DNA from: an uncultured Pseudomonadota bacterium
Lineage (GTDB): Bacteria > Pseudomonadota > Alphaproteobacteria > RF32 > CAG-239
Direction: 5' to 3'
Assembly (NCBI GenBank): GCA_902495305.1
Contig: CABUWG010000002.1
Location: 11,783 to 75,782, forward strand
Length of the DNA: 64,000 bases
Below the pieces are notes generated by a model. It searched no databases and was not told where the DNA came from. It was given only the letters and a program-made list of their open reading frames with translations. Positions 37,893 to 38,293 of this stretch are shown here, in pieces. How positions within the stretch are numbered: position 1 is the first letter of the stretch; each line of letters opens with the position of its first letter. A program made the position numbers and the translations under genes.

Positions 37893-37907
37893 GAACAAAA
37901 CAAGAAC
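37893..37907 (+). promoter_or_regulatory. alphaproteobacterial-type LexA operator (GAAC-N7-GAAC) upstream of umuD'C
   Basis: GAACaaaacaaGAAC lies 18 nt upstream of ATG 37925. Confidence 0.5.
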
Positions 37908-37924
37908 ACAACAACGAGAATGCC

Positions 37925-38293
37925 ATGCCTGCTTTTCATTCTTCTCATGATGACGCTTTTGACTTTTCGGAAAACGCCTACACTTCTCCGCTGGATCTGA
38001 ACCGCCATTTGGTCGCTCATCCGGCCGCCACCTATTTTTTGCGGCTGGAAAGCGATTCTCTCAGACAAGACGGCATTCTCCGCGGCGATACGCTGGTTGT
38101 TGACCGGACGCTGCCGCCGGTCTCCGGCAGTCTGGTTGTGGCAGAACTCAACGGCGAACTGCTTGCCCGCCGCCTCCGGCTGTCTTCCGGCCGGACAACC
38201 CTGTTATGTTCTGACGGCGCCGCCCGTACGGTTTCCGCCTCTGACACTTTTTCGGTCTGGGGCATTATAACCGCAAGTTTCAGAAAGTACTGA
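37925..38293 (+). CDS. umuD: UmuD'-like S24 LexA-family protein lacking the N-terminal cleavage arm and with Arg in place of the catalytic Lys
   Basis: Start taken at the internal Met MPAFHSS... (the track ORF begins at 37862). LDLNRHLVAHPAATYFLRLESDSL...VAELNGELLARRLRL aligns with E. coli UmuD [24 protein letters not shown]...AAVDGEFTVKKLQL. The nucleophile Ser is retained, K97 aligns to R, and there is no Cys-Gly/Ala-Gly cleavage site. Confidence 0.65.
   Translation: MPAFHSSHDDAFDFSENAYTSPLDLNRHLVAHPAATYFLRLESDSLRQDGILRGDTLVVDRTLPPVSGSLVVAELNGELLARRLRLSSGRTTLLCSDGAARTVSASDTFSVWGIITASFRKY

What the first reader, a model, noticed from the sequence alone, without database searches (positions are those of the whole stretch)
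37893..38293. Constitutively 'pre-activated' UmuD': truncated N-arm, no cleavage site and catalytic Lys replaced by Arg, under a GAAC-N7-GAAC LexA box
Alignment with E. coli UmuD is unambiguous from LDLNRHL onward. The 40-aa N-terminal arm with the Cys24-Gly25 autocleavage site is missing, since only ~22 residues precede the core. The catalytic Lys97 position reads ELLARRLRL (Arg) although Ser60 (ESDSL) is retained. This predicts a UmuD' that needs no RecA*-mediated cleavage, so control would be purely transcriptional. A direct-repeat GAACaaaacaaGAAC operator typical of alphaproteobacterial LexA lies 18 nt upstream. umuC follows with a 1-nt gap.
Basis: partly seen in the sequence, partly recalled or inferred. 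Interest (0 to 1): 0.6.

Follow-up and report, generated by a model that had tools for sequence, protein, structure and literature searches.

The report
A UmuD that cannot cut itself
In an uncultured gut alphaproteobacterium, the helper subunit of the error-prone DNA polymerase V has lost the self-cutting machinery that normally switches it on, so the polymerase is probably held in check only by SOS (LexA) repression and RecA binding; such helpers turn out to be common in metagenomes, but I found no description of them in the papers I could search.

Summary
ORF 37925-38293 (122 aa) is a UmuD homologue with Arg82 at the catalytic Lys97 position, Ser45 at Ser60, and no Ala/Cys-Gly bond. An intact umuC follows after 1 nt, and GAACAAAACAAGAAC lies 17 nt upstream.

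One detail is wrong: the cleavage-site region is degenerate, not deleted. MPAFHSSHDD-AFDFSENAY aligns with E. coli FPLFSDLVQC-GFPSPAADY, and only about 14 N-terminal residues are missing.

The operator is invariant in all 19 loci of the window's own family plus three loci from related families. It overlaps the predicted transcription start and matches a published Caulobacter LexA box at 14 of 15 positions.

The gene is under purifying selection (dN/dS 0.1-0.2), including the arm. Only the three ex-cleavage-site residues vary.

Orthologues at the same locus start exactly at the UmuD' N-terminus (MSFGSPA.DY), like phage P1 HumD, but with dead dyads. A Bacteroidota-type class has a dead dyad (Ala/Arg) with a full-length arm.

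"No cleavage needed" is well supported. "Equivalent to UmuD'" is uncertain for this family, which has 10 extra conserved residues. "Purely transcriptional control" is not supported, because UmuC keeps its RecA-binding motif.

Verdict: new variant of a known kind, moderate interest.

The parts
37862..37867 (+). -35-like hexamer TTGCAT. This is also the spurious TTG 'start' of the 143-aa ORF call.
   Evidence: Read directly. Invariant in alignment A3. TTGACA in L010 and TTGCAA in L019 occupy the same position. The promoter scan did not call it because only 3 of 6 bases match TTGACA, so this is an inference from conservation and spacing.
37885..37890 (+). -10-like hexamer TATTAT, 17 nt after the -35-like hexamer.
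   Evidence: The same 17-nt spacing is seen in L010 and L019. Inferred, not mapped.
37892..37908 (+). Operator AGAACAAAACAAGAACA. Its core GAAC-N7-GAAC is at 37893-37907, and it is part of the 11-nt tandem repeat AAGAACAAAAC/AAGAACACAAC at 37891-37912. It is an alphaproteobacterial LexA-box type, starts 2 nt after the -10-like hexamer, and overlaps the expected transcription start.
   Evidence: Identical in all 19 loci of the window's own family and in L038-L040, with one spacer base different in the rest of the cluster. It occurs once per locus. It matches the reverse complement of the Caulobacter LexA box GTTCttgttatGTTC at 14 of 15 positions (PMC12700426). GTTC-N7-GTTC is the alphaproteobacterial motif (PMC3323433).
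37915..37920 (+). Weak Shine-Dalgarno-like purine block (CGAGAA). Orthologues have AGGAG or AAGAGG here.
37925..38293 (+). umuD-like gene, 122 aa: a catalytically inert, non-cleavable S24-fold accessory subunit.
37925..37990 (+). N-terminal arm, residues 1-22. MPAFHSSH (1-8) and FDFSEN (12-17) are near-invariant, and the arm is homologous to E. coli UmuD residues 15-37.
   Evidence: dN/dS of the arm is 0.04-0.24.
37952..37957 (+). Codons 10-11 (Asp-Ala) at the position of the Cys24-Gly25 scissile bond. With residue 9 these are the only freely varying arm positions in the family.
38057..38059 (+). Ser45 codon (TCT), equivalent to the UmuD Ser60 nucleophile. Retained here but replaced by Ala in P0016 and His in P0017.
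38168..38170 (+). Arg82 codon (CGC), at the position of the UmuD Lys97 general base. Arg in all members of the family.
38295..39548 (+). umuC, 417 aa: an intact Y-family polymerase with a beta-clamp motif (QTSLF) and a RecA-NT motif (DUF4113), lying 1 nt after the umuD-like stop codon.
   Evidence: (IMS, IMS_C, DUF4113), and (38% identity to E. coli UmuC over the full length; the D6 position, SVDEAF and the clamp motif align).

Best explanation
This is a chromosomal two-gene Pol V operon, repressed by LexA, in an uncultured animal-gut alphaproteobacterium. Its small subunit is a UmuD-family pseudo-peptidase.

Shown by sequence analysis:
- The S24 fold is intact.
- The general base Lys is Arg, and the scissile Ala/Cys-Gly bond is replaced by variable residues.
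- In more distant family members the nucleophile Ser is also gone.
- The protein, including its short N-terminal arm, is under purifying selection.
- The partner UmuC keeps its polymerase active-site residues by alignment, its clamp-binding motif and its RecA-NT motif.
- A 17-bp operator of the alphaproteobacterial LexA type is invariant directly after the -10-like hexamer.

Inferred:
- The subunit is never cleaved and is made directly in the form that binds UmuC. The RecA*-dependent UmuD-to-UmuD' delay step of E. coli is therefore absent.
- After DNA damage, LexA cleavage derepresses the operon. The small-subunit dimer binds the UmuC C-tail and inserts one conserved N-arm into the palm/little-finger cleft, as modelled for UmuD'. 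RecA* is still required, but only for mutasome assembly through the RecA-NT motif.
- The invariant MPAFHSSH cap is part of that arm and has co-evolved with this UmuC.
For: - Homology and fold.
- Arg at Lys97 in all 17 short family members; Ser60 becomes Ala or His in P0016 and P0017.
- Ex-site residues 9-11 vary while residues 1-8 and 12-17 are invariant.
- dN/dS is 0.10-0.21 for the gene and 0.04-0.24 for the arm.
- The start codon is fixed by upstream stops and indels.
- Synteny is conserved in at least 7 species-level lineages, in a chromosomal context.
- UmuC is intact, with DUF4113. PMC6511836 equates DUF4113 with the RecA-NT motif.
- The operator is invariant, single-copy per locus, positioned at the -10/+1 region, and matches a Caulobacter LexA box at 14/15. 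PMC3323433 gives the class motif.
- Orthologues and near relatives start exactly at the UmuD' N-terminus with dead dyads, followed by umuC, under the same type of box.
- P1 HumD (MGFPSPAADY...) is annotated as functionally complementing UmuD'.
- The UmuD' N-arm is functional in Pol V models: PMC11791011 and PMC12926913.
Against: - No experiment exists on any member of this family.
- The window's family carries 10 residues ahead of the UmuD' N-terminus equivalent. In E. coli a non-cleavable UmuD with 7 residual pre-site residues (delta1-17) has UmuD'-like free arms but supports only low UV mutagenesis (PMC5342242). So the extension may not be neutral.
- Ser45 is retained in most members, and Arg could in principle act as a very poor general base.
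- The lineage's lexA gene and a second LexA-box gene could not be examined.
- AlphaFold monomer models do not discriminate arm docking. The canonical control P0024 looks the same.
- The protein scores below the NCBIfam Pol V UmuD cutoff (83 against 110).
Confidence: 0.6

Rival explanations
1. The protein is a permanently 'uncleaved-UmuD-like' manager. It keeps UmuC non-mutagenic (checkpoint-like, or accuracy-promoting as E. coli UmuD2 does with UmuC and DinB) rather than activating it. The operon would then provide damage tolerance or a replication pause rather than Pol V-type mutagenesis.
For: It retains 10 conserved pre-site residues, including the Pro-x-Phe that aligns with E. coli P16/F18. 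E. coli non-cleavable UmuD variants reduce mutagenesis, and delta1-17 gives only low mutagenesis (PMC5342242; PMC3901139).
Against: - Sister orthologues at the same locus have no pre-site residues at all and begin at the UmuD' N-terminus, which argues that the locus encodes the active-form partner.
- The hydrophobic residues that dock the canonical arm (Leu, Met/Val, Ile in P0024 and L039) are replaced by Ala, His, Ser and Asp.
- An operon that can only make an inhibited polymerase is hard to reconcile with an intact UmuC active site under selection.
Confidence: 0.15
2. The arm is still removed. Either residual Ser45/Arg82 chemistry does this, or another protease cuts in trans (a second S24 protein, Lon or ClpXP). 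A UmuD'-like form would then be generated post-translationally by a non-canonical route.
For: Ser45 is retained in 15 of 17 family members. The MPAFHSSH cap is invariant, as a recognition element might be. From my own recollection, not checked here: LexA K156R is reported to autodigest only at very high pH, and Lon/ClpXP signals lie in the E. coli UmuD arm. PMC5342242 mentions the Lon and ClpX signals.
Against: - The residues at the would-be scissile bond are the least conserved in the arm (DA, DT, EN, DN, GT).
- Ser is lost in P0016 and P0017, and in most other Arg-type proteins.
- Orthologues dispense with the pre-site segment genetically.
Confidence: 0.08
3. The conserved direct repeat is the operator of a regulator other than LexA, for example a winged-helix response regulator that binds 11-bp-spaced direct repeats. 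The operon would then not be part of an SOS regulon.
For: - The element is an 11-nt tandem repeat.
- No lexA gene or second LexA-boxed gene from this lineage could be inspected.
- The motif count in the window is not above chance.
Against: - It matches a Caulobacter LexA box at 14/15 and fits the class-wide alphaproteobacterial LexA motif.
- Its position at the -10/+1 region is that of a repressor.
- umuDC is a core LexA target across phyla (PMC8565304).
- The same box precedes canonical, cleavable umuDC in related contigs (L039, L040).
Confidence: 0.08
4. The gene is a decaying remnant and UmuC works alone.
For: The dyad and cleavage site are lost. One contig has a split umuC (L007).
Against: - dN/dS is 0.1-0.2 with saturated synonymous divergence.
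- The ORF is intact, with a conserved start and 1-nt coupling to umuC, in every lineage examined.
Confidence: 0.03

Closest known systems
E. coli UmuD / UmuD' (small subunit of DNA polymerase V, UmuD'2C)
   Same: - S24 beta-fold core (TM 0.79/0.88 to 1AY9).
- First gene of a two-gene operon with umuC.
- LexA-type operator at the promoter.
- N-terminal arm homologous in register (P-x-F ... x-F ... Y).
- The partner UmuC has clamp and RecA-NT motifs.
   Different: - Lys97 is Arg and Cys24-Gly25 is Asp-Ala.
- About 14 N-terminal residues are absent.
- The hydrophobic residues of the pre-site strand are replaced by His, Ser and Asp.
- It cannot be expected to undergo RecA*-mediated self-cleavage.
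- It scores below the NCBIfam Pol V UmuD cutoff (83 against 110).
Bacteriophage P1 HumD (NCBIfam NF051876)
   Same: A UmuD-family protein that needs no cleavage and is LexA-regulated. The record notes that it functionally complements UmuD'. The window's orthologues L019, P0017 and P0036 start at exactly the same position (M-[GSP]-F-x-S-...).
   Different: - HumD keeps Ser and Lys, has no cognate umuC next to it, and is phage-borne.
- The window protein has 10 extra N-terminal residues, a dead dyad and a chromosomal umuC partner.
- The window protein scores 52.9 against a cutoff of 120 on the HumD model (MAG relatives score 37-70), so it is not a family member.
Engineered E. coli UmuD delta1-17 ('UmuD 18') and UmuD-3A (PMC5342242)
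   Same: Non-cleavable UmuD with a shortened or released arm. The window protein begins at the equivalent of E. coli residue 15.
   Different: The engineered proteins keep an active dyad and fail to cleave because the arm does not dock. Delta1-17 supports only low mutagenesis with E. coli UmuC. The natural family has had time to co-evolve with its own UmuC.
Bacteroidota-type UmuD homologues under CTAA-N5-TTAG boxes (regulon described in PMC8565304)
   Same: Ala/Arg at the Ser60/Lys97 positions; adjacent to umuC; SOS-type operator upstream.
   Different: They have a full-length, conserved arm of about 45 residues with Thr-Gly at the site, a different operator and repressor family, and form a separate branch in the tree. 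The dead dyad of these proteins is not mentioned in the passages of that paper that I retrieved by term searches.
Bacillus YolD/YqjX
   Same: A non-proteolytic small subunit proposed to insert an N-terminal arm into a UmuC-like polymerase (PMC6511836, PMC12926913).
   Different: An unrelated sequence family that shares only an SH3-like core. The window protein is a true S24/UmuD homologue.

Membership tests
Peptidase S24 (LexA/UmuD) as an active autoprotease | S24 domain/fold | tested here: met
   Pfam PF00717 at 49.8 bits (cutoff 23.3). The model matches UmuD' 1AY9 and 1UMU.
Peptidase S24 (LexA/UmuD) as an active autoprotease | Ser-Lys catalytic dyad | tested here: not met
   Ser45 is present, but Arg82 stands at the Lys97 position in all family members. 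The dyad definition comes from PMC8565304 and PMC5342242.
Peptidase S24 (LexA/UmuD) as an active autoprotease | [quoted passage not shown] | tested here: not met
   Asp10-Ala11 occupy the aligned position. The family shows DA, DT, EN, DN and GT there.
Pol V small subunit UmuD (NCBIfam NF007621) | Score at or above the curated cutoff (110 bits) | tested here: not met
   The window protein scores 83.0 bits. The canonical neighbour P0024 scores 158, and the dead-dyad relatives score 94-110.
Pol V small subunit UmuD (NCBIfam NF007621) | Encoded immediately upstream of, and co-oriented with, umuC | tested here: met
   A 1-nt gap to a 417-aa UmuC with IMS, IMS_C and DUF4113 domains. This arrangement is conserved in all orthologous loci.
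Pol V small subunit UmuD (NCBIfam NF007621) | Supports UmuC-dependent translesion synthesis or mutagenesis | not testable with these tools
   Requires genetics or biochemistry.
HumD family (NCBIfam NF051876, phage P1 type) | Score at or above the curated cutoff (120 bits) | tested here: not met
   52.9 bits, against 221.5 for P1 HumD itself.
HumD family (NCBIfam NF051876, phage P1 type) | Translation starts at the UmuD' N-terminus (M-G-F-P-S-P...) | tested here: not met
   The window protein has 10 residues before the aligned Gly25 position. The orthologues L019, P0017 and P0036 do meet this feature.
Alphaproteobacterial LexA regulon | GTTC-N7-GTTC / GAAC-N7-GAAC direct repeat in the promoter | tested here: met
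   37893-37907. It matches a Caulobacter box at 14/15. The motif definition is from PMC3323433.
Alphaproteobacterial LexA regulon | Site conserved in orthologous promoters beyond background | tested here: met
   The 17-bp core is invariant in 9 loci, including loci at 51% protein identity where the flanks have diverged. It is also invariant in 6 species representatives and occurs once per locus in 36 loci.
Alphaproteobacterial LexA regulon | The genome encodes LexA, and lexA/recA carry the same box | not testable with these tools
   No lexA or recA lies in the window or in any fetched locus of the lineage.
Alphaproteobacterial LexA regulon | LexA binding and damage induction | not testable with these tools
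   Needs EMSA, ChIP or RNA-seq.
UmuC (Pol V catalytic subunit) | Y-family core, little finger, clamp motif and RecA-NT C-terminal motif | tested here: met
   IMS 7e-36, IMS_C 3e-16, DUF4113 1.6e-13. It has 38% identity to E. coli UmuC across 415 columns, with the D6 position, SVDEAF and QTSLF aligned. It scores below the NCBIfam UmuC subfamily cutoff, though (339.7 against 431).

The most novel reading that the evidence does not exclude
The window's family is neither UmuD nor UmuD'. Its invariant eight-residue cap (MPAFHSSH) next to a free-varying ex-cleavage site would be a new functional module that replaced self-cleavage with a different post-translational control. Candidate mechanisms are protease- or partner-dependent unmasking, or a His/Asp-rich arm tip acting in the UmuC active-site cleft. 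Pol V timing would then persist through a mechanism not yet described. More broadly, Pol V without the UmuD-to-UmuD' switch would be a recurrent, independently evolved state: gut Alphaproteobacteria with no arm or a short arm, and Bacteroidota with a full arm.
Probability: 0.2. Interest if true: 0.7.

Novelty: new variant of a known kind. Interest (0 to 1): 0.5.

Why it matters
RecA*-mediated cleavage of UmuD to UmuD' is the textbook timing switch that delays mutagenic translesion synthesis until late in the SOS response. Here a whole clade of gut Alphaproteobacteria maintains umuDC under purifying selection with a small subunit that has lost the dyad and the scissile bond. Neighbouring lineages encode the subunit already at UmuD' length, and a Bacteroidota-type class has a dead dyad with a full-length arm.

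If these complexes are active, the cleavage checkpoint is dispensable in nature. That makes two questions directly testable: what the checkpoint is for, and what replaces it (LexA affinity, RecA-NT-mediated activation or proteolysis).

There is also a practical point for annotation. These proteins are currently labelled 'LexA family transcriptional regulator', 'S24 family peptidase' or 'autoproteolytic subunit', and none of those labels fits.

Tried and rejected
1. **Longer TTG start at 37862** (the 143-aa ORF; NCBI cluster member P0172). Rejected. It is the -35 hexamer, the upstream frame is broken or stopped in orthologues, and the extension has no Ala/Cys-Gly.
2. **Significance of GAAC-N7-GAAC by count.** Not significant in the window (1 found, 1.68 expected). 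Its significance rests on conservation instead.
3. **One-mismatch copies of the box in the window.** The only ones upstream of a gene precede fliM (6228) and a cytidylyltransferase-like gene (63722). Judged chance.
4. **Search for lexA/recA of the lineage.** tblastn over the window and all 108 loci found none. A LexA-seeded database search was judged unable to target this lineage and was not run.
5. **AlphaFold arm docking.** The window model has an undocked, low-pLDDT arm, but the canonical cleavable control P0024 looks the same. Uninformative.
6. **Internal duplication within the arm** (PAFHSSHD / DAFDFSEN). 13 of 24 nt are identical, and 33 of 2000 shuffles do as well. Too weak to claim.
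7. **Phylogeny to count independent dyad losses.** The NJ tree has only 20-31% bootstrap at the deep nodes. Only the separation of the Bacteroidota class and the P0020 sister relationship (68%) are usable.
8. **HumD family membership.** Rejected on score.
9. **Rfam on both strands of 37300-39700.** Nothing.
10. **Literature.** Seven full-text searches and reading of PMC6511836, PMC11791011, PMC12926913, PMC8565304 and PMC3901139 found no description of dead-dyad UmuC partners. The library is incomplete, so this is absence of evidence only.
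Full report
**What is in the window**

Between a divergent LD-carboxypeptidase gene (36806-37801, minus strand) and a convergent 1-Cys peroxiredoxin gene lie two co-oriented genes. One is a 122-aa ORF (37925-38293). The other is a 417-aa ORF (38295-39548) that starts 1 nt after the first one's stop codon.

The second gene is an intact UmuC:
- It has Pfam IMS, IMS_C and DUF4113 domains.
- It shares 38% identity with E. coli UmuC over the whole length.
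- The D6 position, the SVDEAF catalytic motif and a QTSLF clamp-binding motif all align.

The first gene is a UmuD homologue:
- Pfam S24 matches at 3.4e-13.
- The best PDB sequence matches are UmuD' and UmuD (3e-15).
- An AlphaFold model has a core pLDDT above 90, and its best structural matches are UmuD' 1AY9 and 1UMU (TM 0.79/0.88).

No Rfam family matches either strand of the region.

**The start codon**

The mechanical ORF list offers a 143-aa version starting at TTG 37862, and one NCBI record uses it (P0172). That start is not real, for these reasons:
- The TTG is the -35-like hexamer itself.
- In L018 an in-frame stop lies 4 codons before the ATG.
- The P0017 loci have no alternative start in 35 upstream codons.
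- L007, L008 and L017 carry a 1-nt indel that changes the upstream frame.
- AGGAG-type ribosome-binding sites precede the ATG in several orthologues.
- Public gene callers on three metagenome contigs call the same 122-aa product.

The extension also contains no Ala/Cys-Gly.

**The catalytic positions**

HMMER alignments to PDB UmuD', two MAFFT alignments and an HMM-based mapping all agree. Ser45 stands at UmuD Ser60 and Arg82 stands at Lys97 (GELLARRLRL against GEFTVKKLQL).

Arg is present in all 17 members of the short family found in a 5.8-billion-protein database. Ser is replaced by Ala in P0016 (60% identity) and by His in P0017 (51% identity). The dyad is therefore decaying, not merely substituted.

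**The N-terminal arm**

The arm is not gone. Residues 1-22, MPAFHSSHDD-AFDFSENAY-TSP, align in register with E. coli F15-PLFSDLVQC24-G25FPSPAADY33, and with the nearest canonical relatives (P0024 and L039: IPLMNS[VT]ISA-GFPSPAGDY). The Pro-to-site spacing is the same, and Phe12 stands at the invariant Phe26 column.

Asp10-Ala11 occupy the scissile position. Only about 14 residues are missing relative to E. coli (about 7 relative to P0024). Canonical, cleavable UmuDs with equally short pre-site arms also exist, for example P0103, which begins MHPVAAG|FPSP.

Across 12 orthologues:
- Positions 1-8 (MPAFHSSH) and 12-17 (FDFSEN) are invariant or nearly so.
- The three ex-site positions 9-11 vary freely (D/A/P, D/E/G, A/T/N).

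dN/dS is 0.10-0.21 for the whole gene and 0.04-0.24 for the arm, at synonymous divergences up to saturation. The gene and its arm are maintained by selection, while the cleavage site as such is not.

**The operator**

GAACAAAACAAGAAC (37893-37907) is the only exact GAAC-N7-GAAC in the window. That count is what chance gives, with 1.68 expected. Its significance comes from comparison:
- The 17-bp core AGAACAAAACAAGAACA is invariant in 9 orthologous promoters. These include the P0017 loci, whose flanking intergenic sequence has diverged.
- It is identical in 6 GTDB species representatives.
- In 36 loci of this bacterial cluster (about 330 kb), the motif occurs exactly once per locus, always at this promoter. 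In the more distant members it differs only by a single C-to-T change in the spacer.

It begins 2 nt after a -10-like TATTAT, which lies 17 nt downstream of a -35-like TTGCAT. These become TTGACA in L010 and TTGCAA in L019. A bound repressor would therefore cover the transcription start.

GTTC-N7-GTTC is the published alphaproteobacterial LexA motif (PMC3323433). The Caulobacter LexA box GTTCttgttatGTTC (PMC12700426) matches the reverse complement of the window's site at 14 of 15 positions. The homologues' source names and the genome-collection titles place the organism among uncultured Alphaproteobacteria from human, mouse, deer and other guts.

I could not examine lexA or recA of this lineage. 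LexA binding therefore remains a strong inference, not a demonstration.

**Relatives elsewhere**

An exhaustive profile search of 1.84 billion cluster representatives, followed by classification of the best 150, gave three results:
- Arg at the Lys97 position, usually with Ser60 also lost, occurs in dozens of 50%-identity clusters of single-domain UmuD-like proteins.
- Several of these begin M-S-F-G-S-P-A-x-[DN]-[YF] or M-P-F-S-S-A, which is exactly at the UmuD' N-terminus.
- The profile was built from Arg-bearing sequences, so these numbers are not frequencies.

Locus-level data confirm the pattern:
- L019 (a Pseudomonadota MAG) has the same synteny as the window (S66 peptidase, small subunit, umuC, Na/H exchanger). 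It encodes MSFGSPAADF... with an Ala/Arg dyad, behind TTGCAA-17-TATATT and AAGAACAAAATAAGAACA.
- Fourteen human-gut contigs (L026-L038, L041) encode MSFGSPA[CIA]D[YF]... with Ala/Arg. An in-frame stop lies within five codons upstream of the ATG in thirteen of them. The same type of box lies at about -31 to -36. umuC follows within a few nucleotides, or overlaps, in all but one.
- L039 and L040 encode a canonical Ala-Gly/Ser/Lys UmuD plus umuC behind the identical box.

So within one cluster of related gut bacteria there are cleavable forms, forms that begin at the UmuD' position, and the window's intermediate-length form. P0020 (MPAFHS...GGFPPP, Ser/Arg) is the sister of the window family, with 68% bootstrap support.

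**A third class, noticed on the way**

About 38 environmental loci encode a protein of roughly 147 aa with these features:
- a full-length, conserved arm (MD..AYRGSK.FTQQ.V..ANATGFGAAADDY)
- Thr-Gly at the site
- GDAM and LLVRRF/LLVRRL at the dyad positions, that is Ala/Arg
- mostly adjacent to umuC.

All 38 carry CTAA-N5-TTAG boxes upstream, 49 boxes in total. That is the SOS motif of the Bacteroidetes described in PMC8565304. This class branches apart from the cluster that carries the alpha-type box. The dyad has therefore been lost at least twice independently.

**Comparison with what is known**

- *P1 HumD.* It starts MGFPSPAADY, has an annotated LexA site, and is noted in its record as functionally complementing UmuD'. 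This is the experimental precedent for a UmuD' that is translated at its processed length. HumD keeps Ser and Lys, though, and has no cognate umuC. Neither the window protein (52.9 bits) nor the MAG proteins (37-70 bits) reach the HumD model's cutoff of 120 bits, which HumD itself passes at 221.
- *Pol V UmuD model.* With a cutoff of 110, canonical P0024 scores 158, the dead-dyad forms score 94-110 and the window protein scores 83.
- *Function of the arm.* Recent in-silico work holds that one UmuD' arm inserts into the UmuC palm/little-finger cleft with its N-terminus near the active site, and that an armless UmuD' is inactive (PMC11791011, PMC12926913). This explains why the arm is conserved here.
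- *A caveat from E. coli.* UmuD delta1-17 is non-cleavable and biophysically UmuD'-like, yet gives only low UV mutagenesis (PMC5342242). The window family's 10 extra residues cannot simply be assumed neutral. They may have co-evolved with this UmuC or may carry a function of their own.
- *RecA dependence.* DUF4113 is the RecA-NT motif through which UmuC binds the RecA subunit needed for the active mutasome (PMC6511836). Its presence argues that RecA* dependence persists after transcription.
- *Literature coverage.* None of the papers I could search mentions UmuC partners with a dead dyad.

**Verdict**

- Non-cleavability and LexA-type control are well founded.
- Strict equivalence to UmuD' is shown for sister lineages but is only inferred for the window's family.
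- 'Purely transcriptional' control is contradicted by the retained RecA-NT motif.

The most likely mechanism (confidence about 0.6) is a LexA-repressed Pol V whose small subunit is a pseudo-peptidase made directly in its working form, with RecA* still needed for mutasome assembly.

It is a new variant of a known kind. It would be moderately surprising to a specialist. Its value lies mainly in showing that the UmuD cleavage checkpoint has been discarded repeatedly in nature, and in offering natural constructs to test what that checkpoint is for.

Noticed in passing
Proteins P0021, P0022, P0033, P0035, P0058 and about 35 others (not in the window): Proteins of about 220-300 aa carry two tandem UmuD-like S24 domains. 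Domain 1 usually keeps an Ala-Gly-like site but has a degenerate dyad (X/Arg or X/Gln). Domain 2 has Ser/Lys intact but no site. They look like covalently fused UmuD pseudo-dimers.
   Followed up: no
L046, L049-L057, L061, L062, L064-L066, L068, L069, L071-L076, L078, L081, L082, L088-L092, L094, L095, L097-L101, L103: This environmental class of about 147 aa has a UmuD-like protein with a full-length conserved arm, Thr-Gly at the site and Ala/Arg at the dyad positions, and is mostly adjacent to umuC. All 38 loci have CTAA-N5-TTAG (Bacteroidetes SOS) boxes upstream. This implies that Bacteroidota-type UmuD is catalytically dead. The passages of PMC8565304 that I retrieved by term searches do not mention this.
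   Followed up: partly
L026-L038, L041 (human gut metagenome contigs); L019; L010-L012: UmuD-like proteins that start exactly at the UmuD' N-terminus (MSFGSPA.DY or MPFSSA), with dead dyads, directly followed by umuC, and under GAACAAAA[CT]AAGAAC boxes. They are abundant in human gut assemblies.
   Followed up: yes
Window 37862-38293; protein P0172; names of P0003, P0006 and P0007: Public annotation issues. One NCBI record calls the 143-aa TTG-extended ORF that runs through the promoter and operator. Sources name these proteins 'LexA family transcriptional regulator' or 'S24 family peptidase', although they lack a DNA-binding domain and the catalytic Lys.
   Followed up: yes
Window 33728-36556 (minus strand), and the equivalent genes of 940-971 aa and about 1100 aa in L001-L006 and L106: Two large conserved ORFs upstream of the S66 peptidase gene have no Pfam hit on record. 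The 942-aa product ends in a Lys/Glu/Ala-rich repeat (KAEKEAAKEAAKAEKEAAK...).
   Followed up: no
L007 1379-2522: umuC is split into two ORFs (138 aa with IMS, and 209 aa with IMS_C and DUF4113) in one contig of the P0014 lineage, whereas L008 from the same protein cluster has it intact. This is either an assembly error or a recent frameshift.
   Followed up: no
Window 6228-6242: A one-mismatch GAAC-N7-GAAA lies 37 nt upstream of a fliM gene (6279-7301). It was judged chance. It also shows that the organism encodes flagellar genes.
   Followed up: partly
L067 1688-2326: In one environmental contig a full-length LexA (59% identity to E. coli LexA) lies directly upstream of a canonical umuD, forming a lexA-umuD cluster.
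   Followed up: no
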